Origin: Ktedonobacteraceae bacterium
Lineage (GTDB): Bacteria > Chloroflexota > Ktedonobacteria > Ktedonobacterales > Ktedonobacteraceae
Assembly: GCA_035294325.1 (NCBI GenBank)
Contig: DATGLE010000066.1
Coordinates: 32,958 to 96,957 of the forward strand
DNA: 64,000 nt
Direction: 5' to 3'
Below the pieces are notes generated by a model, which saw nothing but the letters and a program-made list of their open reading frames with translations, was not told where the DNA came from and did no database searches. Positions 2,968 through 59,101 of the stretch are shown here, one piece after another. Position 1 is the stretch's first letter. The number at the start of each line of letters is the position of its first letter. A program made the position numbers and the translations under genes.

Positions 2968-3022
2968 TATAATTTGTGGTGGGAAAAATGCGCGAAGCGC
3001 ATTTTTCCCACCACAAATTATA
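2968..3022. repeat. 55-bp near-perfect palindrome (tataatttgtggtgggaaaaatgcgc-gaa-gcgcatttttcccaccacaaattata); structural sibling at 53008-53064
   Basis: Read directly from the sequence. Sits 50 bp downstream of the SDR gene stop and upstream of the atp promoter. Could act as a terminator or a protein-binding palindrome. Confidence 0.6.
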
Positions 3023-11100: not shown

Positions 11101-11142
11101 ATAAAAACCTGGCAGCAGTCGCACGACTGCTGCCAGGTTTTT
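11097..11142. terminator. bidirectional intrinsic terminator (14-bp GC stem cctggcagcagtcg/cgactgctgccagg, A-run upstream, T-run downstream)
   Basis: A perfect 14-bp stem with a 2-nt loop, flanked by aaataaaaa and ttttt. Lies between the convergent atpC (+) and TPM-domain gene (-). Confidence 0.85.
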
Positions 11143-11148
11143 ATGCAC

Positions 11149-14417: not shown

Positions 14418-14520
14418 CAGAGACGGGGGCAAGCCCCGTCTCTACATCTCTATGACGCCAGGCGCCGGAAAAATGTAGAGACGGGGCTTGCCCCCGTCTC
14501 TACATCTCTAAGGTACCCCG
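14418..14520. repeat. pair of inverted REP-like hairpin elements (gagacgggggcaagccccgtctctacatctct ... tgtagagacggggcttgcccccgtctctacatctct)
   Basis: Two copies in opposite orientation about 25 bp apart, just downstream of gpmI. The arrangement resembles BIME. Confidence 0.75.
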
Positions 14521-20779: not shown

Positions 20780-21025
20780 ATAAAGAGAGTTCGTTGCTCA
20801 GCGTTTCTATCTCCCCTGCACAGTGCTGGCGCGATGAAGCCGTGCCAACGATGGATGAGAGTTATGTGGACAAATATACGACGAGCATTTGTCCACATAA
20901 CTCTCATCCATCGCGCGAGCGCCTGTGGCGCTCGCGCGATGATGCCGAAAACCGCTCTCTCTTAGAATTGAACAACTACCATCGAGAATGATCCATCCGT
21001 CAAAACAGGAGAAGGAAAGACAACC

Positions 21026-21505: not shown

Positions 21506-21837
21506 AAAAGATGAGAAGCGTCAGAGCCTCTCATCTACTAATGCAATTTAACGCGCCGGGCAAGTTTTCCTGACGGCTCACCGCTGCACGGTTCGCCAGG
21601 AGGGGGAGCCTGCGAGCACAGCGCCGCAGGTGCACTCTCAGGCGAGGAGCCTGCGGGCACAGCGCCGCAAACTCCCCCTCCTGGCGTGCCTGCGGCGCAC
21701 CCTCGGACGAGGAGTCTGCGGGCACAGCGCCTGCGGCGCTGTGCCCGCAGACTCCTCATAACAGGCGAGCCGCGCAGCGGTGAGCCGTCAGCGAAACATG
21801 CACATGGCGTTAAGATAATAATCCGAGCATAATGGAT

Positions 21838-22297: not shown

Positions 22298-22664
22298 CCC
22301 TTCTGAGACGCAGCCCTCTTCGTTGAGGCGTTCGTCATTATTTTACTACTAACACATACTTATACGTAACGGCCCGAGACGGTGTTGCATTGTTCAGTCA
22401 AACCTCCACAGTTCTCCTGACGCCTCCTGACGCTCACCGGCCACTCGCGCGTCTGCGCCACGCGCTGCAATGGTATAGTGTGATGAGGGAAGGCGCGGCG
22501 CGCCTTCCCTCATCACACTATACAGAAGGCGAGCGTTACAGGGGCGAGCAAGCGCGTGCGAGGGCATCAGCCACCAGGCACCCCTCAACAAGGAGATACG
22601 GGTTAGGTCATGGCTTGCTGCCACCCGTGAATACGGAATACAATCAGGCAGTACACGCGAAAGG

Positions 22665-35665: not shown

Positions 35666-36020
35666 ATATCACAACCTCCTTATGATGCAACAAGGGTGAG
35701 ACCTTTTACGGTCCCGTTGATCTAAGCATAGCACGTTGTTGGCTTTTCGACAATGTTATAATCTTCATGACCATGGCTTTATAGTTTCTGGACATAGCCC
35801 CTGGTAGAAAGTTTGATTCTCAGCACTCTCGCTCGCTCTTCCCTGACACTCGCGCGGCTCCGCCGCGCAATAGAGTTTTTGAGTGGTGTGGGACAGGCGC
35901 TCCGCGCCTGTCCCACACCACTCAAAAACTAAGGCGAGCGCCGCAGGCGTGAGCAAGCGAGCAGTCCGGGGATCAGACATATTCTGACAACCACTGGAGA
36001 GTAAAGGATTTTTATTAGAT

Positions 36021-39474: not shown

Positions 39475-39748
39475 TTAACCCGATATGCACGTCCGGGGAC
39501 GCCGGCTACGGGTCCTCGATGGTGTGGTTTGTGGACACAATGCCAGCGGCGCTGTGTCCACAAACCACACAGGCGAACCGCTGCGCGGTTCGCCGTCAGC
39601 AAGACCTGCATAGTATTAGTTAACCCCATGTGCATGTTTTTGGGCGCCTGCGGCGCTGTGCCCGCAGGCTCTTCATCCTGGCGTGCGCCGCAGCGGTGAA
39701 CCATCAGCGAAACTTGCACATAGCATTAGTTAGAAGGCAGGGACCGGC

Positions 39749-44440: not shown

Positions 44441-44779
44441 ATGTTGAAAGAAGACGAGGAGAAGCCCGTTCCCACACCGCAGGCGGAAGAGGGTAGCAAG
44501 AGGGGAAGGACCATCCGCGCCAGGTATGGCGAAGACTACTTTCACCGCATCGGCACGAAGGGTGGCAACACGCTCAAGGAGAAACGGGGCAGCGAATATT
44601 ACCGCACGATTGCCGAGAAAGGCGGCAAAGCCAATATGAACAAGTACGGCCCAAGCCATTTTTCAGAAATGGGTAAGCGCGGCGGCAATACGACCCGAGA
44701 GCGCCAGGACGCCGACTTTTATCGGCGCATCGGGCAAAAGGGAGGAGAAGCGAGGCGTCGCAAAAAAGAAGGAAAATAG
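44441..44779 (+). CDS. KGG-repeat general stress protein (YciG/GsiB-like)
   Basis: Repeated Y-x-x-IG-x-KGG-x-x and EKRG-x-EYYR units. Highly basic. Confidence 0.6.
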   Translation: MLKEDEEKPVPTPQAEEGSKRGRTIRARYGEDYFHRIGTKGGNTLKEKRGSEYYRTIAEKGGKANMNKYGPSHFSEMGKRGGNTTRERQDADFYRRIGQKGGEARRRKKEGK

Positions 44780-44827
44780 AAGATGCTAAAGAAGCAGCGA
44801 GCTGCGCTCGCTGCTTCTTTAGCATCT

Positions 44828-45865
44828 TCACTGGACTTCTGCCTGTTGAGTTCCCAGTTTTGCCAGCCCTTCGGCGATGGCCGGAGCAACGCCCGTCTCC
44901 GCCGTCTGACGGGCCACGCGTAGAGCATTCTTGATCGCCTTCGCGTTCGAGCGGCCGTGCGCAACGATGGCCGAGCCGTTGATGCCCAGCAGTGGCAGCC
45001 CGCCATATTCAGCATAGTCCAGCCGTTTGAAAACTTTGCGCAGGCTGGGACGCAGCACAGCGGCGGCGAGCTTGTTAATGAGCGAGCCGGTCATCTCGGC
45101 GCGCATCAGTTCGAGAATGGTCTCGGCAAGTCCTTCACTGAGCTTGAGTACGACGTTGCCCAGGAAGCCATCGCAGACGACGACATCCGCGCTGCCCGCC
45201 GGAATATCGTGCCCCTCGACGTTACCAATAAAGTTCAGGCCAAGCGTTGCGGCGTTGGCTTTAAGAAGCTGATGCGTCTCTATCACCTGCTGGTTGCCTT
45301 TGCTCTCTTCCTCTCCGTTCGCCAGCAGGCCGATACGCGGAGCCTGCACATGAAAGAGTCGCTGCATGTAAATAGATCCCATGAGCGCGAACTGGAGCAG
45401 ATATTCGGGCTTGCAATCTGTGTTGGCACCCATATCGATGATGAGGCAGGGCTTGTCTTTGGTAGGAAAGACGAGGCCAAGCGCGGGGCGCTCAACGCCG
45501 GGAATACGCTTGAGCGTGAAGAGCGAGGCCGCCATCATAGCCCCGCTATTGCCCGCCGAGACCGCACCGACAGCAGCGCCATCGCGCACCTGCTGCAAGG
45601 CCAGGATCATCGAGGCGTTTTTCTTGCGGCGCACAGCATTGGCCGGATGCTCGTCCATCTCGATCACCTCGTCGGTGTGGATGATCGGTAGATCAAGCCC
45701 GGCGGTATCATGGCGCGCCAGTTCCGCGCGGATCACATCCTCGCGCCCGACGAGATAGACACCTATGCCATACTCGCGCGCGGCCTGGACGGCTCCCAGC
45801 ACAGTTTCGCCGGGAGCTTTATCGCCGCCCATCGCATCGAGAGCGACACGAATAGAGGCGCTCAT
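44828..45865 (-). CDS. plsX: phosphate acyltransferase PlsX
   Basis: N-terminus IRVALDAMGGDKAP is the PlsX signature. Confidence 0.9.
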   Translation of the reverse strand: MSASIRVALDAMGGDKAPGETVLGAVQAAREYGIGVYLVGREDVIRAELARHDTAGLDLPIIHTDEVIEMDEHPANAVRRKKNASMILALQQVRDGAAVGAVSAGNSGAMMAASLFTLKRIPGVERPALGLVFPTKDKPCLIIDMGANTDCKPEYLLQFALMGSIYMQRLFHVQAPRIGLLANGEEESKGNQQVIETHQLLKANAATLGLNFIGNVEGHDIPAGSADVVVCDGFLGNVVLKLSEGLAETILELMRAEMTGSLINKLAAAVLRPSLRKVFKRLDYAEYGGLPLLGINGSAIVAHGRSNAKAIKNALRVARQTAETGVAPAIAEGLAKLGTQQAEVQ

Positions 45866-46236: not shown

Positions 46237-46773
46237 ATTACCAGCATTCCCCTCATCTAAAAAGGTGCCGGGGCCACGCCCCTGAAAGTATGCCTATCCT
46301 CGGCGCCTTCCCTCGCGCGCGGCTTCGCCGCACCGGGGATATGGTTTATATGGCAAGACAATGGGCGAAGCGCATTGTCTTGCCATATAAACCATATACA
46401 GCGAGCGCCGCAGGCGCGAGCAGTGATTGGGGCAGCGATCAGGCACACTCTGACAACCCCGATCTTCAAAATGATACAAGCCTATTATAGCATTATGCCA
46501 CACAGAATGTACGGCGAAAAAGGCAGCTCAGGCTCAGAGATAGGACCATAAGGGCTTGACAAGCCCTCATGTTTGTACTACTGTACAGCCGAAGCCGCCG
46601 TTTAGTACAAATATTCAGGGCTGTCGCGCGGCGGAGCCGCGCATGGAATGGAGAGTGTGATACGGAAGGCTGTGCGAAGCGCAACCTTCCGTATCACACT
46701 CTCCATAGAGCAAGCGCCGCAGGCGCGAGCACGCGATGAGATCGGAAATCAGACAACCCATCAGGAAAGAATC

Positions 46774-48768
46774 ATGACGCTTTCTGCTCCTCTCTTCTGC
46801 GACAGGTGCGGCGCGGCAAACCGGGCGCAGGCGCTGTACTGCCGCGTATGTGGGCAGGCGCTTGGCGCCTCCTCTGGAGGAACCAACAGCGTCAGTTCCA
46901 CGCTCACCGGGCTGCTGAACCGCCAGCATGTGCTCAAGCAGCGCTACGTCATTCTCGGCCAGGCGGGACGGGGCGGCTTCGGCGCCGTCTACAAGGCGTC
47001 GGATACCCAGTTCGGCAACCGGCTCGTAGCGATCAAGGAGATGAGCCAGAGCAATCTTGATGCGCAGGAACTGCGGGAGGCGAGCGAGGCATTCAAGCGC
47101 GAGGCGCTTTTGCTCGCTGGCCTGACGCACCCGAACCTGCCGCGCATCTACGAGCAGTTTACCGATAGTGGGCGTTCATATCTGGTGATGGATTTCATCG
47201 AAGGCGAGACGCTGGAGGAGCATCTGACCGGCCTGGCCGGTAAACGGCTCCCGGTTGATCGCGCACTCGATATCGCCCTCCAGCTCTGCTCGGTACTCCA
47301 TTACCTGCATACGCGCCAGCCGCCGATCATCTTTCGCGACCTCAAGCCCGCGAACGTCATGCTCACTCCTGGCGGCCACGCCTATTTGATCGATTTCGGC
47401 ATCGCGCGCCACTTCAAGCCGGGGCAGAGCAAAGATACCACCGCGCTGGGTTCATCGGGCTACGCCGCGCCGGAGCAGTACGGCAAGGCGCAGAGCACGC
47501 CCGCCGCCGATATCTACGCTCTGGGTGCGACGCTGCACCAGTTGCTAAGCGGCGATGATCCCGCAGAAACTCCTTTTCATTTCGCTCCGCTGAACCTGCA
47601 AAACCAGTCCGCGCTGCAAGGGCTGGATACGCTAGTAATGAGTATGGTGAGCGTGAATATCGCGCAGAGGCCGGCCAGCGTTGCCGCCGTGAAGCAGGAG
47701 TTGGAGCGCATTGCCATGCAGTACAGGCTGGGGCAGACGCTGCCACTGCGCAGCGCCGTGCCGAACATCTACCAGGCGCCCGCGCAGCCAGGCGCGAAGC
47801 GAACCCGGCCGGCGGTCTCGCAGATCCAGCCACAGAAGAATACGCTTTTTATTTGCAGCGGCCACAGCAGCCGCATCACGGCGTTAGCATGGTCGCCCGA
47901 CGGCAAGCGCATCGCCTCGGCCGGGTACGATAAGACCGTTCAGTTATGGGACGCTGCCAACGGCAATAAGCTGCTGGCCTACAGGAGACATCTCGGGCAT
48001 GTGAACGCGCTGGCATGGTCGCCCGATAGCAAGCGCATCGCCTCGGCCAGCGCCGATGGCAGCGTTCAATTATGGGAGGCCGATACAGGGAAGCTGCTCC
48101 ACACGTATAGCGAGCACCAGGGACCACTCTACGCCGTGGCATGGTCGCCCGATGGCGAGTACATTGCTTCGGCGGGTGAGGATACCACCGTACAGGTCTG
48201 GCGCGCAAAGACGGGACTGCGCCTGTTTACCTGCCGCAACCACTCCAGCAAGGTCTGCGCCCTGGCGTGGTCGCCCGACGGCAAGCGCATCGCCTCGGCA
48301 GGTGAGGGCCGCAGGATCGAGATCTGGGAGCCGGTCAAGGATCGCCAGCAAAAACGCTCCCTGCTCGGCTCGCTGACGCTCATGCTGGCGCTCAATCGCG
48401 GGCAGATGGTGCTTTCCGGTCACTATAAACGCATCAATGCGCTGGCATGGTCGCCCGATGGCAAACGCGTGGCTTCGGCCAGCAGCGATCACCGCGTGCT
48501 GGTATGGGATCTACTGATGGGCAGGCCAGTATTTCAGGCAGGCGGCTCCGCAACAAAGAATGCGCTGGCATGGTCGCCTGCCAGCACACATCTCGCGGTT
48601 GGCGGCAACGACAAGGCCGTAGAGATCTGGAACACAACGAGCAGGACACTGGCCTCAACCTATCACGGGCATCGTGGTTATGTGATGGCGCTGGCATGGT
48701 CGCCCGACGGGACGCGCCTGGCCTCGGCGGGCGTTGACCGCACCTTGCAGGTGTGGCAGGCGACCTGA
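46774..48768 (+). CDS. Ser/Thr protein kinase with N-terminal zinc ribbon and C-terminal WD40 beta-propeller
   Basis: CDRCGAANRAQALYCRVCG. Kinase motifs GRGGFGAVYKA, AIKEM, HRDLKPANVML and DFGIA. At least 7 WD repeats (ALAWSPDGKRIASAG x several). Confidence 0.85.
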   Translation: MTLSAPLFCDRCGAANRAQALYCRVCGQALGASSGGTNSVSSTLTGLLNRQHVLKQRYVILGQAGRGGFGAVYKASDTQFGNRLVAIKEMSQSNLDAQELREASEAFKREALLLAGLTHPNLPRIYEQFTDSGRSYLVMDFIEGETLEEHLTGLAGKRLPVDRALDIALQLCSVLHYLHTRQPPIIFRDLKPANVMLTPGGHAYLIDFGIARHFKPGQSKDTTALGSSGYAAPEQYGKAQSTPAADIYALGATLHQLLSGDDPAETPFHFAPLNLQNQSALQGLDTLVMSMVSVNIAQRPASVAAVKQELERIAMQYRLGQTLPLRSAVPNIYQAPAQPGAKRTRPAVSQIQPQKNTLFICSGHSSRITALAWSPDGKRIASAGYDKTVQLWDAANGNKLLAYRRHLGHVNALAWSPDSKRIASASADGSVQLWEADTGKLLHTYSEHQGPLYAVAWSPDGEYIASAGEDTTVQVWRAKTGLRLFTCRNHSSKVCALAWSPDGKRIASAGEGRRIEIWEPVKDRQQKRSLLGSLTLMLALNRGQMVLSGHYKRINALAWSPDGKRVASASSDHRVLVWDLLMGRPVFQAGGSATKNALAWSPASTHLAVGGNDKAVEIWNTTSRTLASTYHGHRGYVMALAWSPDGTRLASAGVDRTLQVWQAT

Positions 48769-48866
48769 GCGCAGCCATATCATCCTGAGCGCGACATGTC
48801 ATCCTTCGTTACGCTCTGGATGACATGTCGCGCTCGCGATGATATGCTGTCAAAGGAATATCCCCC

Positions 48867-49643
48867 TCAACCTTTCGTGGCCGTGACTATACGCACAGGC
48901 GGGTAGATCTGGAAGCTGAGGCCGGAGACATGCACGTTCCGCATACCGCAGGCCGCCAGATCTTGCGCATATTGCCTGGTATGCGCGATATCAAGCAGCG
49001 CTACCTGTCCCTGCGGCTTCAAGACGCGCACAATCTCCTGGATTGCCCTGCGCCGCTCCTCGCGATTGGAAATGTTATGGATAGAGAGGCTCGCAACAAC
49101 GGCATCGAAGGCAGCATCTTCAAAGGGCATATGACGCATATCGCCGTCAATCACCTCGACACGATCCGCCACACCCTCGGCCTCCGCATTCGCCAGCGTC
49201 GCCGCCGGGCAGTTGTCGCTCTGATCGGCACTGGACCAGAGATCGATGCCCACGGCGCGACCATGCGGCAGGCGTTTAGCTGCCCCGATGAGCAGGAGAC
49301 CGTGGCCGCAGCCAACATCGAGCACCTTTTCGTCTCCGCGCAGGTGCAGATTATCAAGCAAGCGATCACGCAAACGAAACTTGCCAACAAAGCTGCTCCT
49401 GAACATCAGCAGCGCCGTGGGAATCATCCAGCAGGCGTTGATGAGCGCCAGTATGACGATAATGTTTACAATCACAACAACGAGCAGGCTTGCGTGCGCC
49501 AGCAGCGTATTCCCGACAACGATCAACACCAGCGCCAGCGCCAGCAGCGCTATGCCCCCCCGGAGACATGTCTTGACGAACCCCGGTGCATCCAATCCAT
49601 AGTCTGCTCGTGAGCGCGTCACCATGTTTTTTCCCGCTATCAT
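48867..49643 (-). CDS. class I SAM-dependent methyltransferase with N-terminal membrane helices
   Basis: VLDVGCGHGLL SAM motif I. Two TM helices precede it. Start chosen at MIAGKN, which has a GGAAGTGAGAG RBS. Confidence 0.65.
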   Translation of the reverse strand: MIAGKNMVTRSRADYGLDAPGFVKTCLRGGIALLALALVLIVVGNTLLAHASLLVVVIVNIIVILALINACWMIPTALLMFRSSFVGKFRLRDRLLDNLHLRGDEKVLDVGCGHGLLLIGAAKRLPHGRAVGIDLWSSADQSDNCPAATLANAEAEGVADRVEVIDGDMRHMPFEDAAFDAVVASLSIHNISNREERRRAIQEIVRVLKPQGQVALLDIAHTRQYAQDLAACGMRNVHVSGLSFQIYPPVRIVTATKG

Positions 49644-49944
49644 ATAGCTCTCACTTCCAGGAAAAATGTCTTTTTGATAGGCAAATTTTGTTACTTTAAT
49701 GTTAATATTATGATATCTTTTCGATTTCGTCAAGGCAAACAGCTAAAAATGGTTTATTATCTGGAGGTATTTGATAGGGAGAGAGTGAAATATGATTTTT
49801 TCGAACCCAGATCGGTAAGCATCAGGAAGAACGAGTCAGCCTGTCATGCTTAGCGACAGTGCGGGATCTGCGTATCCAGCCTCCCAGCTCCTGCGCTGTC
49901 GCTGAGCATGACATTGCCGAACGTGTTCGTTACACTATATCATT

Positions 49945-51031: not shown

Positions 51032-51985
51032 TCAGGACAGGTTATCTACCAGGCGGCGAGCAGCGTGCAGCCACTCTTCGGGATTATCGTCGGGGATAGA
51101 GCAGCCATTGGCGAGGATGAGTCGCCTGCCACCGACCTGCGAGACCGACGAGAGCATCTCGTTTTTCAGTTCCGCCTCGCTGCCATGCGTTAGCGCCCCA
51201 CGCTCCCATAGACCGGCCATCAATGCCTTGCTGGTAGAATTTGCCGCCTCGGCCAGACTCGGCCCCGTCAGCCGATCACTCCAGCTTATGACCTGCACGG
51301 GGTAGCGATCAAAGAACTCGAAATAGATCTGATCGCTGGTCTGATCTGGATCGGCATGAACATGGACGATATTCAGCCATCCCTGCTCCGCCCCCCGCAG
51401 CGCCTCAACATCGTAGGGATAGGCATGCTGGCTGTACTCGTCGAGCGTCAGATCGGCGGTTGTCGCCCCCATGCAGGAGAAAAAGATGCCACTGGCGCCT
51501 TCATTGATCGCCGCTTCCATCAGGCGGCGCAGATTCGAGGCGATGGTGCCCATCCCTTCCTCGATGGGGCCGGCATCGGCGCGCAGTGCCGCGATGGCGC
51601 GCTGCTTGCCCATGAAGCGCAGCACATACGTAAAGGGGCTGAACAGCGTCAGGATCAAGGGATAATCGTTACCTATGCGCTGCCGCACGCTGCGAATGCA
51701 GACAAGTTGCTCGCGAAATGCGGGCACATCGAGGTCAAGTTTAGGCAGGAGCCGTATATGTGAGACATCGACGACATCCTCATCTGGCCCAGGATAAGGA
51801 AGATCGGGCATGATTTTGGCGATATCCAGCTTAAAGGTATCGACGAAGAAGTTAATGGTGAACTCGGCCAGCTTCTCACCCGACCCTTCTGGTTTGAAGT
51901 GATGCCAGAAGACAAGGGGGACACGATCTACCGCCTCTCCCTTTACTGCCGCGCGAACGCGCTCACCCGGTGTCATTGTACTCAT
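51032..51985 (-). CDS. uroporphyrinogen-decarboxylase (URO-D) family protein (MtaA/CmuA-like)
   Basis: N-terminus RVRAAVKGEAVDRVPLVFWHHF and a TIM-barrel-length sequence. Confidence 0.7.
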   Translation of the reverse strand: MSTMTPGERVRAAVKGEAVDRVPLVFWHHFKPEGSGEKLAEFTINFFVDTFKLDIAKIMPDLPYPGPDEDVVDVSHIRLLPKLDLDVPAFREQLVCIRSVRQRIGNDYPLILTLFSPFTYVLRFMGKQRAIAALRADAGPIEEGMGTIASNLRRLMEAAINEGASGIFFSCMGATTADLTLDEYSQHAYPYDVEALRGAEQGWLNIVHVHADPDQTSDQIYFEFFDRYPVQVISWSDRLTGPSLAEAANSTSKALMAGLWERGALTHGSEAELKNEMLSSVSQVGGRRLILANGCSIPDDNPEEWLHAARRLVDNLS

Positions 51986-52121: not shown

Positions 52122-52748
52122 TCACTTTCCAGTGGAGTAGCTTCCCGGCAGAGGAGTAATCGGAGGCGCTGGCACCAGTGTGGGCCATGCGGGCGGAAGT
52201 TGCAACGCATATTTTTGCGCAAGCAGCGCAGCCTGTTCCAGAATGCGCCTGATATCGCGCAGCGATTTCTCAGGGGGAACCTGCCCCCAGAAGAGCAGCA
52301 CAGCCATTTGCGAAACATCCGGCGGCGCGACATTCTGCACAAAATAGCCATTGCAATAGTTCAGGCCGTAGCGCTTGAGTACGGCGGCCTGGTGTTCTGA
52401 GAATATGCCGGCGCCGTCCCGCAGCGGAATATCGCGCCGCATCTCCATCACATGCTCGGCTACCGCCACCACCCGCTCGTTCACGAGCACCGGCCCGACC
52501 AGTCGTTCGTTCTGGCACTCCAATGCTCGCAACATCAGAGACGAGGATGCAGCGCTATCGCCGGGCGTCACCCAGAACTGCGCGACCCGCACATGATAGT
52601 GGCATACAAGGGCGCGGGCCAGCCCTTCGAACAACTCATCGAGATCACGTATGAACGGAGCCTGTCGCAACAAGCGGGCAATAATCAGCAGTTGCATATT
52701 GCGAACTGCTGGCTGGAATAGATCTTGAGTAGAGGCACTTTTTATCAT
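52122..52748 (-). CDS. hypothetical protein
   Basis: 208-aa ORF divergent from the SWIM gene. No recognisable motif. Confidence 0.35.
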   Translation of the reverse strand: MIKSASTQDLFQPAVRNMQLLIIARLLRQAPFIRDLDELFEGLARALVCHYHVRVAQFWVTPGDSAASSSLMLRALECQNERLVGPVLVNERVVAVAEHVMEMRRDIPLRDGAGIFSEHQAAVLKRYGLNYCNGYFVQNVAPPDVSQMAVLLFWGQVPPEKSLRDIRRILEQAALLAQKYALQLPPAWPTLVPAPPITPLPGSYSTGK

Positions 52749-53007
52749 GTTATCTTTCCCCCTTTGCTATCTTCCACCCATCGATAGGATAGGTTCCTGG
52801 CATAACAGCCGGAAATACTATACTCGATTTTTGCCGGTGATGTGTTAAAAAGTTATTAAAAATCATTGGAAGATATAAATATTCTGTTGCACAGGAATTT
52901 ACACAAGAAATGTGTCATACTTTGTTTATGCCGCCATGAAGTGTGGCAAATCTTGCAGTACTTGCTTCCCAGCGCCAGCGCTTGCGAGTACCTGCGGCGC
53001 TCACCTT

Positions 53008-53064
53008 TATAATTTGTTTTATGAGAAAATGCGCTGTACGCATTTTCTCATAAAACAAATTATA
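53008..53064. repeat. 57-bp palindrome (tataatttgttttatgagaaaatgcg-ctgta-cgcattttctcataaaacaaattata), sibling of 2968-3022
   Basis: Shares the outer arms (tataatttgt ... acaaattata) and the inner aaaatgcg/cgcatttt with copy 1. The middle stem differs, but the difference is compensatory. Confidence 0.6.
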
Positions 53065-53182
53065 AGCAATATACAACAGAAAGAGTGAGATGCGCATGGT
53101 TTCGGAGCGATTGACCGGACGCCCGCGTCGTGCTATCATAACTCAACATAGCTCAATGTAGATTCGTAATGGCAGAAGTTCT

Positions 53183-55606
53183 ATGGAAAATGTTGTACCC
53201 GGCGCCCTGCAACGCCTGCGCGCCGCTGATATCATGCGCATAGCGGGGCTGACGGCAGCATCGCAAGGGCAGGAGTATTGTCGCACAGGAGCAGTACAGA
53301 ACCCACAGCGTCAGGGAGCCAGAATCAGCGGAATTGTTGTTCATATCCCCCGGACCGGCACGCCTGTATCGCCCCAGAGCGTAGCTGAGGAGCCATTCGC
53401 AGCCGACCAGCATTCCTATCCCGTTGAGGTTGAGATACAGAGCGCGACAGCATGGGAGAGCAACTGCCTATGTGGCGAGGCTTCTTCTGCCCGGCTTTGT
53501 CCCCACGCAGCGGCTCTCCTCTACTACTGGCTCGCACATCCCGAGGCTTTTGCCACCCCCGGCGAGACCTCCTCTTCTAACACAATGCGTGCAAGCGGCG
53601 GCACGTACAGAAAATCAACGGCAGCAACGACGCCCACACCGGAGCCAGCGCCACCTCTATCGCTGCGTTCGATGACCGTCACGCGCGGGTCGGAGCCACT
53701 CGATAGTCTTGAGGACGTTCTGAGCCAGATGGGAGTGAGCGAACTGCGCAGCATCGCGCGCGAATATGATATCGTCACCAACGGCATGAGCAAACAAGCG
53801 CTGGCGCACACTATTCTGGAGACCGTGAGCCGGCCCGAAGCGGTGCGACGCGCCGCGGCGACGCTGGAGAAGTCCCAGCGCCAGTTGCTGGCCGCATTGA
53901 CATTGGCGGGGGGCGCGATGACCGACGAGGATCTGCGCGGCCTCTACGAACGCTTTGGCCTGGGCCACCCCAGCCAGTTCCAGAGCGCCATCGTCGCCCT
54001 CCAGAGCAAATTTTTGATCTTCCGCACCAGCCTGGAGAGTCCTTTACAGACGCGCATAGGTTTGAGCGGTTCGCTATCCGATATTGGCTGGTGCGTGCCG
54101 GAGGAGGTGCAGGCAGCTCTGCGCGTGACCGTCCCGATCACCACGTTCAATATCGAGAAAAGTACCGATGTCACGCACATCCAGGAGGCCGAACCCTATA
54201 GCCTGCTGGCGGATCTGCTTCTCGTAGCGCGCGCCCTGGATAATTACCGGCTCTCCGCCAGCGATACCTGGCAGGAACGGAGCGTGCCCGGGCGTTCATA
54301 TGATACAGCATCCCCTTCTCGCCCGCCGATCACCTTCTCGCCCGATGGCTCCGTTGCCATCCCTCCGCCCGGCGATACGCCCTCGCCATCGCTGCTTGAA
54401 ACGTTGCGGAACATCGTCCCTCGCTCGCCCGCGTTTTTGCGCTTCGCCGTTCGCCTCCTGCGGCTGGCAGATATCCTGCATCAAGATGACAGTGGCACTC
54501 CATACCTGCGTGTTCTACCTAACGCTGCTGAATTGCTGTTAGGGCCGGCACGCGCCGATATAGCGCACGAACTGTTTGAACTCTGGCTGCGGCAATCCTC
54601 CTACGATGATCTGTTCGAGTTACAGGAAGAAGGGCTGCGCCTGCGCTGCCGTGCGACTGCGCTCAATCTTCCTGCCCTGCGCAGCGGAGAATTGGAGGCG
54701 GAGAATAGCGAGGCCAGGCAATTTCTACTTGCACTGCTGGCTGAGGCTCCGCTTGAGCAGTGGATCAGCTTCCCGGCCTTCGCGCGCTTCGTCTATCGCT
54801 TGAACCCGCTCTTTTTGCAGAAGCGGCAGCGGCTCTACTCCTCGCCGCACTGGTGGATAGAGCGCGAGGAAGGGCGTCCCCTGCGCCCCTTACAGCAGCA
54901 CGACTGGTCACAGGCGGAGGCCCACTACATCGCGCGTCTCCTGCACGAACCGCTGCACTGGTGGGGCATATGTGATACCGCGTTTTCTGCCGACGGGCGT
55001 TTGCTCGCGTTCCGCCTCACGGCGCTCGCCGGATGGTTCTTCAGCCACCTGTCCCCCGTCGCAGAGGAACCGCCCGCGCAGAGTTCTCCGCCGAGCGCCG
55101 GAGCGTTGATTGTGACCGGCCCTGGAGAAATACGCGTTGCCTGTGCTCCGGCTCTGTGGCCGACGATTGCGCTACTGGAAACCTTCACGGAGAGCGCCGG
55201 TGTGCACGATGGCTGCCTCTGCTATCGCCTGACGCCGCGAGCACTGAGCACCGCGCTGAGCCAGGGACACCGCCCGGGGCGATTGCTGGAGCTGTTGCGA
55301 CTTGCAGCCTCCACAGAGACGGAACCAGATGGCCCGGCGGCACGCCTGGTGGCTCAGCTTGAACGCTGGGCCGCAAGCTATGGCCGTATGCGTATCTACA
55401 CCGGCGTCGCGCTGCTTGAGGCGGCGGATAGTATGGTCATGCGCGAACTTTCCGCGACAACCTCGTTAGACGGCCAGATTGTAAAGGCTATCCAGCCCAC
55501 TCTGCTCATTCTTAATAAGCCGGGAGCGGAACTTGTCAGCGACGAACTGAAGCGGCGCGGCCAGTCTCCTCTCCTGCACGACGAGGAATTGTATGGAACA
55601 GAGTGA
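53183..55606 (+). CDS. SWIM zinc-finger-containing large protein of unknown function
   Basis: 807 aa. Residues ~100-125 read CLCGEASSARLCPHAAALLYYW, matching the SWIM CxCx(n)CxH pattern. The rest is Leu/Ala/Arg-rich helical sequence without enzymatic motifs. Confidence 0.65.
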   Translation: MENVVPGALQRLRAADIMRIAGLTAASQGQEYCRTGAVQNPQRQGARISGIVVHIPRTGTPVSPQSVAEEPFAADQHSYPVEVEIQSATAWESNCLCGEASSARLCPHAAALLYYWLAHPEAFATPGETSSSNTMRASGGTYRKSTAATTPTPEPAPPLSLRSMTVTRGSEPLDSLEDVLSQMGVSELRSIAREYDIVTNGMSKQALAHTILETVSRPEAVRRAAATLEKSQRQLLAALTLAGGAMTDEDLRGLYERFGLGHPSQFQSAIVALQSKFLIFRTSLESPLQTRIGLSGSLSDIGWCVPEEVQAALRVTVPITTFNIEKSTDVTHIQEAEPYSLLADLLLVARALDNYRLSASDTWQERSVPGRSYDTASPSRPPITFSPDGSVAIPPPGDTPSPSLLETLRNIVPRSPAFLRFAVRLLRLADILHQDDSGTPYLRVLPNAAELLLGPARADIAHELFELWLRQSSYDDLFELQEEGLRLRCRATALNLPALRSGELEAENSEARQFLLALLAEAPLEQWISFPAFARFVYRLNPLFLQKRQRLYSSPHWWIEREEGRPLRPLQQHDWSQAEAHYIARLLHEPLHWWGICDTAFSADGRLLAFRLTALAGWFFSHLSPVAEEPPAQSSPPSAGALIVTGPGEIRVACAPALWPTIALLETFTESAGVHDGCLCYRLTPRALSTALSQGHRPGRLLELLRLAASTETEPDGPAARLVAQLERWAASYGRMRIYTGVALLEAADSMVMRELSATTSLDGQIVKAIQPTLLILNKPGAELVSDELKRRGQSPLLHDEELYGTE

Positions 55607-57986
55607 CCTCGATCTGCTGCGCACGGCACCGGCCTATCATCTACAAACATTGCTCAGAACCAGGCACATAGCCATTGCGCAGGACGAATTACGCTCTGAT
55701 CCTTCCCCTTCCTCAGTCTCTATCATTACGCCGGAAATCGCGCAATCTCTCCTGGATCCGTCGGCTATAAGCGAGGCGCTGAAAGATCTCGATAAGGTGG
55801 AGATAGCGATATTGCGCGAGCTGGTCGCATGCGGCGGGCGCGCCAATAGTCGCGATCTCGCTTTGTATCTCACCGGTGCCGGCCTGCTCTCGCCCGGCAA
55901 GAAAGGCGAGACGGCACCCGCGCGCGAATCCCCGGCGCGTGTGCAGGATATCTTTCGCGCATCACAGCCACTCATGGCCCCGGAATATCCCGTTGCTCAC
56001 CCCCACGGCATTTTTGAGCAGGGTCTGCGACACCTGCTCATCGCGGGACTCGTGTTCTGGGGAAAACAGACGGGTTTCACGGGGCGCGAACGTGACTACG
56101 CCGCTGGCACCCATGATGGTACGCTGATCGTTCCTGTTGCCGTGCAGAAGGCAGTACGCAGCGCATGGGAACTGGAAGAGGTCTCGCCGGGCACGCAGGG
56201 CCAGCAGGGCACCGGCGAAGGGGAACAGGAATTGCAGCGCACGCTCTATCTCTACTGGTCCCTGGTGGCCGCCACGCGCGAGGGCCTTCCTCTCCTGACC
56301 AGCGGCCTGCTTGCACGCTCCGCTCTGCGGCAGGTGACGGATGGGATGGGCGACAGGCTGCATATCGAGCAGGCGAGGCAGGAGAATGAGGTTCCGCGCT
56401 TATTGTTTATCCGGCTCCTCCTGATGAAGCTGGGCCTGCTGCTCGAACGAGATGGAACGCTGCGCGCGGCTCCGGCGGAGCCATTTTTCTCACTACCGCT
56501 GGTCGAGCGCGTCCGTCGCTGCCGCCGCCTTTATGTCGAAACCCCCTTCTGGAATGAAATGCTTTATCTGCCAGAGGTAAGCGTGCGTCCAGGCCCGGCG
56601 CCGCTCGAAGAGGCCCACGCGGAAGTCGTCAACGCGCGCCGCCAGGTCATCGAACGTCTATTGCACGAACCGCGCGAGGAGTGGCGCAACCTCTCTACTT
56701 TTATCGCGCGTTGCAAGCTGCACATACCAAATCTGCTCTTTCCGCGCCAGTATGGACCGCGCGCCGAGCGCTATTCCAGCGAGAGCAACCCCTACGGCTG
56801 GGATTTCCGGCTGCGCCGTGGCTGGCTGATGCCGCGCGAGGGATGGCACATGATCGAGGGCGGCTTTATTCGCGCCGTCGTCGGCGGCCCGCTGTACTGG
56901 CTGGGCCTGGTGGAGCTTGATCACGCCGAAAATCCCACCGCATTTCGTCTTACGCCCGACATTGATACGGTGATGAGCGACGCCCCTTTAGCGAGTGACG
57001 AGCCGGTCTGGGGACGACTCATTGTACAGCCAAATTTCGAACTGGTGGCTCTGGCTCCCGTCTCCGAAGCATTGCTCGTCAGCCTTGATCGCTTCGCCGA
57101 GCGCGTCAGCCTGGAACATATCGCGCAGTACCGGCTGACGAAGGCCAGCGTCACGCGCGCTATCCAGACGGGGCTGCATGCCGGGGAGATTCAGGAGATG
57201 TTGGAGCGCGCAGCAGGCGGCGATTTGCCGCAGAATGTGCGCTACTCTCTGGTCGAGTGGGAGCGGCAGGCCAGGCGCGTTGAGATGTGGCGCGATGCCA
57301 CGCTCTTCGAGGTCGATGAGGCAGCGCTGCTGGATGCGCTGTTTGCGGATGAAGCGACGCGGCCATTGCTCAGGCGACGCCTGGCTCCAACGCTGGCGGA
57401 GGTCGCGCCACAACATCTATCAGAGCTACAGAATTTGCTCTGGCAGCGCGGCTACCTGCCCGCGCTCGCCTCTGCTCCCGAACAGCACGCTTTATCCGAG
57501 GGTGGCCGCCTGGTCGAACGCGAACCACAGTGGCGGCTGCACAATGATGGCCTGTTGCAGCCCTTCTATGCCGTGCTCGATCTCTACCTGGCGGCGGAAG
57601 TCCAGCGCTTCACGGAACGCGACGAGCCGACGGGCTGGCCGCGCATCACTCCCACGTCCCTGCGGCAAGCGCTGGAGCGCGATATGACGCTCACTGACAT
57701 TATACGCTTCTTGCAGCGCTATTGTGGGGGCGGCATCCCTGGCTCTCTGCTGATCCGTCTCAAGCTGTGGGGCGGCGGCTACGAAGGCGGCCAGGAGGTA
57801 CGCGTCGAACATGCGCCCATGCTGCGCCTCTCAGAAGCGGTACTGCGCGATTTGCAGGCCGACGAAGAGATCGGCCCACTGCTCGGCGCCGAGGTTGAGC
57901 AGCGCAGCCGGCTGGTGCGCGTAGAGGGGGATAACCTGGCGCGGGTAATGGAACTGCTGCGCGAGCGCGGCTTCCCCCTGGCATGA
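55593..57986 (+). CDS. large hypothetical protein translationally coupled to the SWIM protein
   Basis: 797 aa. Start overlaps the upstream stop by 14 nt and has a GAGGAA RBS. No Walker A or DExH motifs were found on inspection. Helical and Arg/Leu-rich. Confidence 0.55.
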   Translation: MEQSDLDLLRTAPAYHLQTLLRTRHIAIAQDELRSDPSPSSVSIITPEIAQSLLDPSAISEALKDLDKVEIAILRELVACGGRANSRDLALYLTGAGLLSPGKKGETAPARESPARVQDIFRASQPLMAPEYPVAHPHGIFEQGLRHLLIAGLVFWGKQTGFTGRERDYAAGTHDGTLIVPVAVQKAVRSAWELEEVSPGTQGQQGTGEGEQELQRTLYLYWSLVAATREGLPLLTSGLLARSALRQVTDGMGDRLHIEQARQENEVPRLLFIRLLLMKLGLLLERDGTLRAAPAEPFFSLPLVERVRRCRRLYVETPFWNEMLYLPEVSVRPGPAPLEEAHAEVVNARRQVIERLLHEPREEWRNLSTFIARCKLHIPNLLFPRQYGPRAERYSSESNPYGWDFRLRRGWLMPREGWHMIEGGFIRAVVGGPLYWLGLVELDHAENPTAFRLTPDIDTVMSDAPLASDEPVWGRLIVQPNFELVALAPVSEALLVSLDRFAERVSLEHIAQYRLTKASVTRAIQTGLHAGEIQEMLERAAGGDLPQNVRYSLVEWERQARRVEMWRDATLFEVDEAALLDALFADEATRPLLRRRLAPTLAEVAPQHLSELQNLLWQRGYLPALASAPEQHALSEGGRLVEREPQWRLHNDGLLQPFYAVLDLYLAAEVQRFTERDEPTGWPRITPTSLRQALERDMTLTDIIRFLQRYCGGGIPGSLLIRLKLWGGGYEGGQEVRVEHAPMLRLSEAVLRDLQADEEIGPLLGAEVEQRSRLVRVEGDNLARVMELLRERGFPLA

Positions 57987-58080
57987 GATGTGCCCGGTTT
58001 TAAATATCAGTGGTGAAACTGTTGACAAACCGCCAAAGCTATGATATCTTAGTAACGCAAACCGGATATGACAGTTTAAG

Positions 58081-58155
58081 CGGGAGTGGCTCAGTGGTAG
58101 AGCGCTTCCTTGCCAAGGAAGATGTCGCGGGTTCGAATCCCGTCTCCCGCTCCAT
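58081..58155 (+). tRNA. tRNA-Gly (GCC)
   Basis: Cloverleaf readable directly: acceptor gcgggag/ctcccgc, anticodon loop ttGCCaa, T-loop ggttcgaatcc, encoded CCA. Confidence 0.9.
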
Positions 58156-58168
58156 TGCCCCATTCAAG

Positions 58169-58242
58169 GCGACGTAGCCAAGTGGTAAGGCACGGCTCTG
58201 CAAAAGCTGCACCAGCGGTTCGAATCCGCTCGTCGCCTCCAG
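58169..58242 (+). tRNA. tRNA-Cys (GCA)
   Basis: Acceptor ggcgacg/cgtcgcc, anticodon loop ctGCAaa, T-loop ggttcgaatcc, encoded CCA. Confidence 0.9.
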
Positions 58243-58285
58243 AGACGTGATTGTGCATCACGTCTTTTCTTGTTTTCAGGACCAC

Positions 58286-59101
58286 CACATGCGACAGCAA
58301 CGTAGCTACTCCACCGAGGCCGTCATCCTCAAACATACCGATCTGGGTGAAGCTGATCGGATCCTGACGCTGCTCACCCCCTACAAAGGGAAAATGCGTG
58401 TGGTGGCTAAAGGCGCGCGCCGCCCCATCAGCAGAAAGACAGGCCACCTGGATCTGCTCTGCCATAGCCAGTTGCAGATGGCGCTGGGCCGCAACCTCGA
58501 TATCGTGACCCAGGCCCAGGCTATAGAAAACTTCCTGCACCTGCGCGCAGAACTCTGGCATATGACCTGCGGCTTCTACCTCGCCGAACTGATTGACCGC
58601 TTCATCGAGGATGACACGCGCCACCTCGATGTATACAACCTGCTGCTGGAGGCACTGCGTGCCCTCGATGCCGATGCCCTGGAGCTACAACACAACCGCG
58701 AGCAAGGCGTGGCTCCCACCGGCTACGAGCGCAGTCGCAGCCAGTTGCTGCTGCGCTACGTCGAGCTTAACCTGCTCTCTTACATCGGCTATGAACCGGC
58801 GCTGCGCACCTGCGCGCACTGCCACAGCGAACTGGAGCCAGTACAGAACGGCTTCTCGCCGCCGCTCGGTGGCGCGCTCTGCCCCAACTGCTCGCACCTC
58901 TGGGCACAGTCACTCTCAATGAATGCCCTGAAAGTCCTGCGCCTGCTACAGCGCAGCGAGTGGACGCAGGTGCCGCGCCTGCGCCTTGATGCCCGCCTCC
59001 ACACCGAGGTCGAGGGGGCCATGCACAGCCTCTTGCGCTTTCACCTCGAACGCGATCTCAAGTCGTGGAGCTTCCTGGAGATGCTGAATATCAAGCAGTA
59101 A
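58286..59101 (+). CDS. recO: DNA repair protein RecO
   Basis: N-terminal OB fold (EAVILKHTDLGEADRILTLLTPYKGKMRVVAKGARR). C-terminal CAHCHSELEP...CPNC zinc motif. Confidence 0.85.
   Translation, partial: HMRQQRSYSTEAVILKHTDLGEADRILTLLTPYKGKMRVVAKGARRPISRKTGHLDLLCHSQLQMALGRNLDIVTQAQAIENFLHLRAELWHMTCGFYLAELIDRFIEDDTRHLDVYNLLLEALRALDADALELQHNREQGVAPTGYERSRSQLLLRYVELNLLSYIGYEPALRTCAHCHSELEPVQNGFSPPLGGALCPNCSHLWAQSLSMNALKVLRLLQRSEWTQVPRLRLDARLHTEVEGAMHSLLRFHLERDLKSWSFLEMLNIKQ

What the first reader, a model, noticed from the sequence alone, without database searches (positions are those of the whole stretch)
53183..57986. Translationally coupled pair of ~800-aa proteins, the first with a SWIM zinc finger, of unknown function
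Two very large ORFs (807 and 797 aa) overlap by 14 nt (55593 start vs 55606 stop), with a GAGGAA RBS inside the upstream gene. This implies obligate co-expression. The first protein carries a clear SWIM pattern (C-L-C-x8-C-P-H at ~aa 100-115) in an otherwise helical Arg/Leu/Ala-rich sequence. Bacterial SWIM proteins are usually partnered with SNF2-type helicases. On inspection the partner here shows no Walker A (GxxxxGKT/S) or DExH box, so this is not the standard SWIM-SNF2 module. The pair is preceded by a 57-bp palindrome (53008-53064), a possible operator, and followed directly by tRNA-Gly and tRNA-Cys, a frequent landmark for integrated or accessory DNA. It could be a nucleic-acid-targeting or defence-related two-component machine not yet described.
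Basis: partly seen in the sequence, partly recalled or inferred. Interest (0 to 1): 0.7.

Follow-up and report, generated by a model that had tools for sequence, protein, structure and literature searches.

The report
Helicase-less XPB accessory protein pair
These two overlapping genes in a soil Chloroflexota bacterium encode non-enzymatic partner proteins of the DNA-repair helicase XPB, one of them related to the human TFIIH subunit p52; no paper found here describes such bacterial partners, and in this lineage the pair sits without the helicase gene.

Summary
Two ORFs of 807 aa (P1) and 797 aa (P2) overlap by 14 nt, with a GAGGAA ribosome-binding site. P1 has a SWIM zinc finger whose four ligands are invariant in 50 homologues. 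P2 has no helicase core. A perfect palindrome lies upstream and tRNA-Gly and tRNA-Cys lie downstream.

In other Chloroflexota, their orthologues are genes 2 and 3 of an operon headed by a genuine XPB helicase (5 loci). A variant operon has a mini-P1 ORF, a P2 fused to a WYL domain, then XPB.

In Ktedonobacterales the pair is core-genome: P1 directly precedes P2 in 79 of 80 species loci and RecO often follows, but canonical XPB is never within 10 kb.

The palindrome is one of 13 in the window and is not conserved upstream of orthologues. The tRNAs are conserved synteny. There is no defence, phage or full-length plasmid signal.

Best reading: a P1–P2 complex that recruits or regulates an XPB-type translocase. 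Whether this genome encodes XPB elsewhere was not testable.

The parts
53111..53139 (+). Likely sigma-70-type promoter of the pair (TTGACC, 17-nt spacer, TATCAT with an upstream TG)
   Evidence: It matches the consensus at 10 of 12 positions. The words GATTGACC and (T)GCTATCATA recur in 24 to 30 of the 65 upstream regions examined. Function is inferred.
53183..55606 (+). P1, 807 aa: SWIM, SAP-like motif, winged-helix array and one clutch (Helicase_C_3) domain. Orthologue of gene 2 of the XPB operons.
53183..53557 (+). P1 SWIM zinc-finger domain (aa 1-125). The ligands C95, C97, C106 and H108 are encoded at 53465-53506.
53708..53860 (+). P1 SAP/Rho_N-like helical motif (aa 176-226), a putative DNA-binding element
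   Evidence: Pfam Rho_N scores 19.5 bits, below the cut-off. The A1 profile matches the FAN1 SAP region at E 0.013. The evidence is weak.
53870..55102 (+). P1 winged-helix array (aa 230-640)
55106..55555 (+). P1 clutch domain (aa 642-791), the XPB-NTD/p52-type fold. Its last ~60 aa is the module that persists as a mini-ORF in variant operons.
55583..55606 (+). Coupling junction: GAGGAA RBS (55583-55588), P2 ATG (55593) and P1 TGA (55604-55606)
   Evidence: The junction is conserved across the order.
55593..57986 (+). P2, 797 aa: SAP-like/winged-helix N-terminus, winged-helix array and two clutch domains. A p52/Tfb2-like protein and orthologue of gene 3 of the XPB operons.
57018..57473 (+). P2 clutch domain 1 (aa 476-627)
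   Evidence: Pfam Helicase_C_3 scores 107 bits over 476-598, and Tfb2 scores 26.4 bits over 436-541. The A2 profile matches Tfb2 chains at E 0.19.
57531..57965 (+). P2 clutch domain 2 (aa 647-791)
   Evidence: This is the second Helicase_C_3 stretch. The A2 profile over 656-758 matches the human XPB NTD at E 0.023.
58080..58241 (+). tRNA-Gly(GCC) and tRNA-Cys(GCA): conserved neighbours, not part of the system
   Evidence: The same pair follows P2 in 33 of 69 orthologous loci.
58247..59101 (+). recO: a conserved downstream neighbour and the only functional hint from local context
   Evidence: Pfam RecO_N and RecO_C. It lies downstream of P2 in 47 of 80 Ktedonobacterales loci and in L001.
53007..53065 (.). 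59-bp perfect hairpin palindrome. Real, but a genome-wide feature and not an operator of the pair.

Best explanation
P1 and P2 are the two non-catalytic accessory subunits of a bacterial XPB-helicase module. Here they are encoded without the helicase gene. Both are chains of winged-helix domains that end in the 'clutch' fold shared by the XPB N-terminal domain and TFIIH p52. P1 adds an N-terminal SWIM zinc finger and a SAP-like motif. P2 carries two clutch domains. In TFIIH, the p52 clutch and the XPB NTD pair through their beta-sheets as a pseudo-symmetric dimer, and this recruits XPB and stimulates it (PMC6422496). I infer a similar scheme here. P1 and P2 are made together and pair through clutch domains. 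P2's spare clutch domain docks the N-terminal clutch domain of an XPB-type translocase. The SWIM, SAP-like and winged-helix parts hold DNA or select the substrate, most likely in a DNA-repair or DNA-opening reaction. What is shown: domain content, folds, paralogy, conserved coupling, orthology to XPB-operon genes, and core-genome status. What is inferred: P1-P2 binding, XPB docking, DNA binding, and a repair role. What is unknown: whether this genome has XPB elsewhere.
Against: No canonical XPB lies within the 64-kb window or within 10 kb of the pair in any of 80 Ktedonobacterales loci. I could not search whole genomes, so XPB may be absent from this lineage. The nearest outgroup locus, L091, also has the pair without XPB on a 7.7-kb contig. 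The Tfb2 score is below Pfam's cut-off (26.4 against 34.5), and the PDB profile E-values are weak (0.02-0.2). No multimer model or interaction data exist. The P1 clutch domain is only at threshold, and part of it (aa 739-775) is modelled with low confidence. Repair-gene neighbours are circumstantial, and no SOS box was found.
Confidence: 0.6

Rival explanations
1. The pair acts on its own in Ktedonobacterales. It descends from XPB accessory proteins but now works without XPB, for example as a DNA-binding scaffold, a nucleoid or repair-site organiser, or a regulator built from winged-helix, SAP-like and SWIM modules.
For: XPB is absent from the window and from all 80 flanks of +/-10 kb. The pair also stands alone in L091. 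Both proteins remain strongly conserved along their whole length. They contain many DNA-binding-type winged-helix domains.
Against: All three clutch domains, whose only known role is pairing with another clutch domain, are retained and conserved, including P2's second copy. Unlinked genes for subunits of one complex are common in large genomes. Seven of the eight distinct loci sampled outside Ktedonobacterales that could be scored keep XPB adjacent; L092 was not scorable.
Confidence: 0.25
2. The pair is a new two-component anti-phage or anti-plasmid defence system that targets nucleic acids.
For: SWIM proteins and WYL domains do occur in some defence contexts (my own knowledge, not tested here). 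Some P2 relatives carry a WYL domain. No catalytic function has been assigned.
Against: There is no PADLOC match. Neither protein has a nuclease, ATPase or other effector domain. The pair sits at a fixed locus next to recO, tRNAs and an MFS gene across an order. No relative was found in 2.9 million viral contigs or 50,697 phage records. Only a truncated fragment was found among 72,556 plasmids. The neighbours are housekeeping genes.
Confidence: 0.04
3. The pair is an ordinary SWIM plus SNF2-type helicase module whose helicase motifs have degenerated.
For: A SWIM finger is present in gene 1.
Against: P2 has no ResIII, SNF2, DEAD or Helicase_C domain and no Walker A or DExH motif. Its fold is winged-helix plus clutch, with no RecA-like domain. 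The 'Helicase_C_3' name refers to the non-catalytic XPB N-terminal domain.
Confidence: 0.01

Closest known systems
TFIIH XPB-p52 (Tfb2) 'clutch' submodule of eukaryotes
   Different: There are two partners instead of one. P2 has two clutch domains. P1 has a SWIM finger and a SAP-like motif. No p34-, p44-, p62- or XPD-like genes lie nearby. No p8 counterpart could be shown. The Tfb2 score is below Pfam's cut-off. In this window the XPB gene is not linked.
Bacterial XPB helicases (for example Mycobacterium tuberculosis XPB, PMC3353954)
   Same: The operon relatives encode this kind of XPB: Helicase_C_3 NTD, ResIII, ERCC3_RAD25_C and the RED motif.
   Different: P1 and P2 have no helicase core. 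That paper states that no p52 homologue and no partner complex had been found in bacteria.
Archaeal XPB-Bax1 helicase-nuclease complex
   Same: It is an XPB helicase with an operon-encoded partner protein (PMC13024598).
   Different: Bax1 is a nuclease that binds the XPB thumb motif and HD2. P1 and P2 have no nuclease domain and resemble the XPB NTD and p52 instead.
Bacterial SWIM zinc-finger proteins paired with SNF2 helicases
   Same: There is an N-terminal CxCxnCxH SWIM finger in a protein encoded beside a helicase-related gene.
   Different: The partner here is not a helicase. The associated helicase in relatives is XPB, not SNF2. SWIM is optional in the family: the L091 P1-like protein lacks it.
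WYL-domain nucleic-acid sensors (for example PafBC-type regulators; my own knowledge)
   Same: Some P2-family members end in a WYL domain that scores above Pfam's cut-off.
   Different: The window's P2 has no WYL domain.

Membership tests
Pfam PF13625 Helicase_C_3 (XPB-NTD/p52 clutch domain) proteins | Domain score at or above the curated cut-off of 34.2 bits | tested here: met
TFIIH p52/Tfb2 (PF03849) | Pfam Tfb2 score at or above 34.5 bits | tested here: not met
   P2 scores 26.4 bits (E 4e-6), covering only model positions 250-356 of 358. TIGR00625 scores 14 bits against a cut-off of 321. P2 resembles p52 but is not a member by the curated thresholds.
TFIIH p52/Tfb2 (PF03849) | p52-like fold: a winged-helix array followed by a clutch domain | tested here: met
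TFIIH p52/Tfb2 (PF03849) | Binds the XPB NTD and a small p8/Tfb5 subunit | not testable with these tools
   No multimer prediction was available. A p8-like signal for the mini-P1 module (E about 0.9) vanished with a sharper profile.
XPB/ERCC3/Rad25 helicase | SF2 helicase core (ResIII, Helicase_C, ERCC3_RAD25_C, Walker A, DExH, RED motif) | tested here: not met
   No such domains or motifs occur in P1 or P2. tblastn of XPB against the window matches only P2's clutch region.
XPB - SWIM protein - p52-like protein operon of Chloroflexota (defined here) | P1 and P2 are orthologous to genes 2 and 3, with the same order, strand and tight junction | tested here: met
XPB - SWIM protein - p52-like protein operon of Chloroflexota (defined here) | An XPB gene adjacent to the pair | tested here: not met
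   There is none in the window and none within 10 kb in 80 Ktedonobacterales loci.
SWIM zinc finger (PF04434) | CxCxnCxH ligands and the SWIM fold | tested here: met
SWIM-SNF2 helicase module | The partner gene encodes an SNF2-family ATPase | tested here: not met
Known anti-phage defence systems (PADLOC-DB 2.0) | A match to any defence-protein model | tested here: not met
   There were no hits at E up to 1 for either protein.
Archaeal XPB-Bax1 | A Bax1-type nuclease partner | tested here: not met
   Pfam and NCBIfam give no nuclease or Bax1 hit.

The most novel reading that the evidence does not exclude
Bacteria have a true counterpart of the TFIIH XPB-p52 clutch partnership. The P2 family would be the prokaryotic homologue of p52, working with a second, SWIM-bearing clutch protein (P1). 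In Ktedonobacterales the pair has been detached from the helicase gene and may act without XPB. If so, the way XPB is recruited in eukaryotic transcription and repair either predates eukaryotes or was exchanged with bacteria. It would also give the long-unexplained bacterial XPB its missing partners.
Probability: 0.4. Interest if true: 0.75.

Novelty: new variant of a known kind. Interest (0 to 1): 0.55.

Why it matters
The role of XPB in bacteria is unresolved. The papers I could search say that bacteria have no p52 homologue and no known XPB partner complex (PMC3353954; PMC13024598 calls the bacterial role elusive). These results point to two specific partner proteins. They are encoded with XPB in several Chloroflexota lineages, and one of them resembles p52 in both sequence and fold. 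That makes the question directly testable with pull-downs, ATPase stimulation assays and multimer models. It also bears on where the TFIIH XPB-p52 interface came from. The Ktedonobacterales pair, conserved at one locus without the helicase gene, is a natural test of whether these proteins need XPB at all. For the scan itself, a 'mystery defence pair' becomes a conserved, chromosomal, helicase-associated module.

Tried and rejected
1. Palindrome as operator: rejected. It is one of 13 long hairpins in the window. L001 has none upstream. Only 6 of 65 upstream regions have a long hairpin, all with unrelated sequences. They do not form one sequence family and match no Rfam family.

2. tRNAs as an island border: rejected.

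3. SOS regulation: GAAC-N4-GTTC occurs in 1 of 65 upstream regions, and there are no CTGT-N8-ACAG sites.

4. Defence or mobile element: no PADLOC hit, no viral contig, no phage record, and one truncated fragment next to an IS66 element on a plasmid.

5. The mini-P1 module as a p8/Tfb5 counterpart: profile A5 hit TFB5 chains over their full length at E about 0.9. The sharper profile A6 lost them entirely. Not supported by sequence.

6. The XPB-core-like 479-aa helicase near the pair in L059 and L078 as the local partner: rejected. It lacks the clutch NTD and the RED motif. In 80 metagenome loci carrying its relatives (803 kb in total), none has P1, P2 or an XPB NTD nearby.

7. Searching for XPB in Ktedonobacteria through XPB homologues: the best 120 hits were all of the Anaerolineae type, so this was uninformative.

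8. Family alignments A3 and A4 were too divergent for the genome scan.

9. The AFDB50 fold library was not available.

10. Single-sequence PDB searches found nothing useful.

11. Literature searches for Helicase_C_3, Rv0862c, XPB with SWIM, and Ktedonobacter with XPB gave no description of these proteins.

Full report
OBSERVATION. The two ORFs are as described: P1 at 53183..55606 (807 aa) and P2 at 55593..57986 (797 aa), both on the + strand. P2's ATG (55593) lies 14 nt before the end of P1's TGA (55604-55606). A GAGGAA sits at 55583-55588, inside P1. P1 carries CLCGEASSARLCPH at aa 95-108. Neither protein has a Walker A or DExH/D motif. The upstream palindrome is real: 53007-53065, with 27-nt perfect arms and a 5-nt loop. 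tRNA-Gly(GCC) and tRNA-Cys(GCA) follow at 58080-58241, and recO follows them at 58247-59101. The pair has slightly higher GC content (62.4%) than the window as a whole (58.8%).

WHAT THE PROTEINS ARE. Pfam finds Helicase_C_3 (PF13625) in both proteins. P2 scores 107 bits in two stretches. P1 scores 34.3 bits, just above the cut-off of 34.2. P2 also gives a sub-threshold Tfb2 (TFIIH p52) match (26.4 bits, E 4e-6). P1 gives weak Rho_N/SAP and SWIM matches. NCBIfam gives only partial matches to the N-terminus of XPB. Despite its name, Helicase_C_3 is the non-catalytic N-terminal domain of XPB. The same fold forms the p52 'clutch' domain, and in TFIIH the two pair through their beta-sheets as a pseudo-symmetric dimer that recruits XPB (PMC6422496).

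Profiles built from 50 homologues each (A1 and A2) were searched against PDB sequences. P2 residues 656-758 match the human XPB NTD (E 0.023) and residues 463-542 match Tfb2 (E 0.19). P1 residues 163-224 match the FAN1 SAP region (E 0.013). These E-values are weak.

The SWIM ligands C95, C97, C106 and H108 are invariant in all 50 P1 homologues. P1 and P2 are distant paralogues. BLASTP gives 26% identity over 304 aa (E 6e-12). hhalign aligns P1 434-801 with P2 284-628 at 97.8% probability.

The resulting domain maps are as follows. P1 has a SWIM domain (1-125), a disordered linker, a SAP-like motif (176-226), a winged-helix array, and one clutch domain (642-791). P2 has a SAP-like/winged-helix N-terminus, a winged-helix array, clutch domain 1 (476-627) and clutch domain 2 (647-791).

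DISTRIBUTION AND CONTEXT. Close homologues of both proteins come from Ktedonobacteria (Chloroflexota). Public records call them 'helicase-associated domain-containing protein' or 'hypothetical protein'. A scan of one genome per species found 80 loci, all from Ktedonobacterales. They include cultured Ktedonosporobacter, Dictyobacter, Tengunoibacter and Ktedonospora.

P1 lies directly upstream of P2 on the same strand in 79 of 80 loci; the exception is cut by a contig end. recO lies downstream in 47 of 80. The junction is the identical 14-nt overlap in 48 of 78 scorable loci and lies between -6 and +20 nt in 73 of 78, with GAGGA-type sites. tRNA-Gly plus tRNA-Cys directly follow P2 in 33 of 69 loci with enough flank. 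L001 shows the same layout. This is core-genome synteny, not an island.

A search of 1.84 billion cluster representatives found 378 clusters with E at or below 1e-30. Most are 740-810 aa and align over their full length. The members I could trace to a source name are from Chloroflexota.

THE KEY RESULT. In more distant relatives the pair belongs to an operon with a genuine XPB helicase. That helicase has a Helicase_C_3 NTD, ResIII, ERCC3_RAD25_C, Helicase_C and the RED motif.

Five loci (L002, L085, L086, L087, L089) read XPB, then a 625-751-aa protein, then a 754-807-aa protein, with overlapping or abutting genes. The third gene is P2's orthologue, at 27-32% identity over most of its length and E down to 5e-79. 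The second gene is P1's orthologue, with E down to 8e-29. It carries a SWIM motif in all five loci. In L085 the motif lies just upstream of the called start.

A second arrangement is found in L003/L004 and L090. A 66-67-aa ORF is followed by a P2-like protein with a C-terminal WYL domain (Pfam 23.7 bits against a cut-off of 21.8), and then by XPB. The small ORF aligns to the last ~60 aa of P1-type proteins, which end in a conserved 'GYTPR' motif. In those lineages P1 is therefore reduced to this single module.

L088 has a similar small ORF and a P2-WYL gene, but no XPB in the available flank. L092 was not scorable because P2 lies at the contig edge. The nearest outgroup to Ktedonobacterales, L091, has a P1-like gene without SWIM followed by a P2-like gene, and no XPB on a 7.7-kb contig. 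One metagenome protein, P0244 (1346 aa), is a P1-P2 fusion. It is a single observation.

WHAT IS MISSING HERE. The window contains no XPB core. tblastn of XPB matches only P2's own clutch region. No canonical XPB lies within 10 kb of the pair in any of the 80 Ktedonobacterales loci.

Two MAGs (L059, L078) have a 479-aa XPB-superfamily helicase 2.5 kb downstream. It lacks the clutch NTD and the RED motif. In 80 metagenome loci carrying its relatives, none has P1, P2 or an XPB NTD nearby. I treat that adjacency as coincidental. I could not search whole Ktedonobacterales genomes, so whether they encode XPB elsewhere remains open. This is the main weakness of the model.

MECHANISM (INFERRED). The clutch fold's one established role is pairing with another clutch domain (PMC6422496). 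P1, P2 and XPB together hold four such domains: one, two and one. That fits two pseudo-symmetric pairs, with P2 as the bridge between P1 and XPB.

Several observations suggest that P1 and P2 act as a complex. The coupled translation is conserved. A fusion protein exists. The P1 C-terminal module survives as a stand-alone mini-protein. Part of the P1 clutch domain (aa 739-775) is modelled with low confidence when predicted alone, although that has other possible causes.

The SWIM finger, the SAP-like motif and the winged-helix arrays are plausible DNA- or substrate-binding elements. A repair role is suggested only by neighbours: recO here, uvrC near L002 and a UDG gene near L089. No SOS box was found.

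REGULATION. The palindrome is one of 13 long hairpins in the 64-kb window. It is absent upstream of the pair in L001. Long hairpins occur in only 6 of 65 upstream regions, each with an unrelated sequence. They do not form a single sequence family. What is conserved is a promoter-like pair of words, GATTGACC and (T)GCTATCATA, found in 24 to 30 of 65 upstream regions. These match the window's TTGACC-17-TATCAT at 53111-53139, which lies downstream of the palindrome.

COMPARISON WITH KNOWN SYSTEMS. The pair works like, and is partly homologous to, the XPB-p52 part of TFIIH. It is not a member of the Tfb2 family by Pfam's cut-off, and no other TFIIH-like genes are nearby. It is not a SWIM-SNF2 module, not an XPB-Bax1 complex and not a known defence system. 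It is also absent from viral, phage and plasmid collections, apart from one truncated fragment.

The searchable literature gave no description of these partner proteins. A 2012 paper on M. tuberculosis XPB states that p52 homologues had not been found in bacteria. A 2026 review still calls bacterial XPB function elusive. The library does not cover most subscription journals, so an earlier computational description cannot be excluded. Databases already flag the domain.

VERDICT. This is a conserved chromosomal pair of XPB-associated, p52-like scaffold proteins, seen here in a lineage where the helicase gene is not linked to it. It is a new variant of a known kind and of moderate interest. The whole-genome XPB check is the next decisive step.

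Noticed in passing
window 2968-3022, 11101-11144, 14419-14501, 20849-20913, 21709-21757, 22473-22523, 35855-35949, 39522-39570, 44779-44829, 46287-46449, 46648-46706, 48776-48846, 53007-53065: There are thirteen long, mostly perfect hairpin palindromes (arms of 21-80 nt, loops of 1-13 nt) in 64 kb, about one per 5 kb. They do not form one sequence family. Only 2968-3022 and 53007-53065 share arm ends (TATAATTTGT...AAAATGCG). Some lie between convergent genes like terminators, and others lie between divergent genes. Equally long, unrelated hairpins occur upstream of P1 in five other Ktedonobacterales loci. No Rfam family matches them.
   Followed up: partly
L003 9804-12778, L004 627-3601, L090 3358-6269, L088 1585-4508: In a variant XPB operon, the P2-like protein carries a C-terminal WYL domain and is preceded by a 66-94-aa ORF. 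That ORF is homologous only to the last ~60 aa of P1-type proteins. The layout formally parallels XPB-p52-p8, but a sequence link to p8/Tfb5 was not supported.
   Followed up: partly
P0244 (JGI metagenome contig of 38,690 bp): A single 1346-aa protein fuses a complete P1 to P2 from about residue 205 onward. It could be a real fusion or an assembly or frame artefact. It was seen once.
   Followed up: no
L078 15856-17295 (-) and L059 15766-16917 (-): This is a 479-aa XPB-superfamily helicase (ResIII, ERCC3_RAD25_C, Helicase_C) with no clutch NTD and no RED motif. It has at least 480 relatives in metagenomes. It is often next to a Ser/Thr kinase (20 of 80 loci) and never next to P1 or P2.
   Followed up: yes
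window 51032-51985 (-) and 48867-49733 (-); L003 14638-15588 and 18017-18817: A URO-D-like gene and a class I methyltransferase lie near the pair in the window. The same two gene types lie just downstream of the XPB operon in L003 and L004. This may be residual synteny or chance.
   Followed up: no
window 46648-48768 (+): This is a 706-aa Ser/Thr protein kinase fused to a WD40 beta-propeller. The listed ATG start lies inside a 28-nt-arm palindrome (46648-46706), so the true start may be further downstream.
   Followed up: no
window 52122-52748 (-): This 208-aa ORF, divergent from P1, has no Pfam match and no counterpart next to the pair in any of the 80 orthologous loci. It is lineage-specific or not a gene.
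   Followed up: partly
L093 6770-7798 (Singulisphaera acidiphila plasmid pSINAC01): The only plasmid hit to P2 is a short 'helicase-associated domain-containing protein' directly beside an IS66 transposase. It is probably a truncated remnant, in a Planctomycetota organism.
   Followed up: partly
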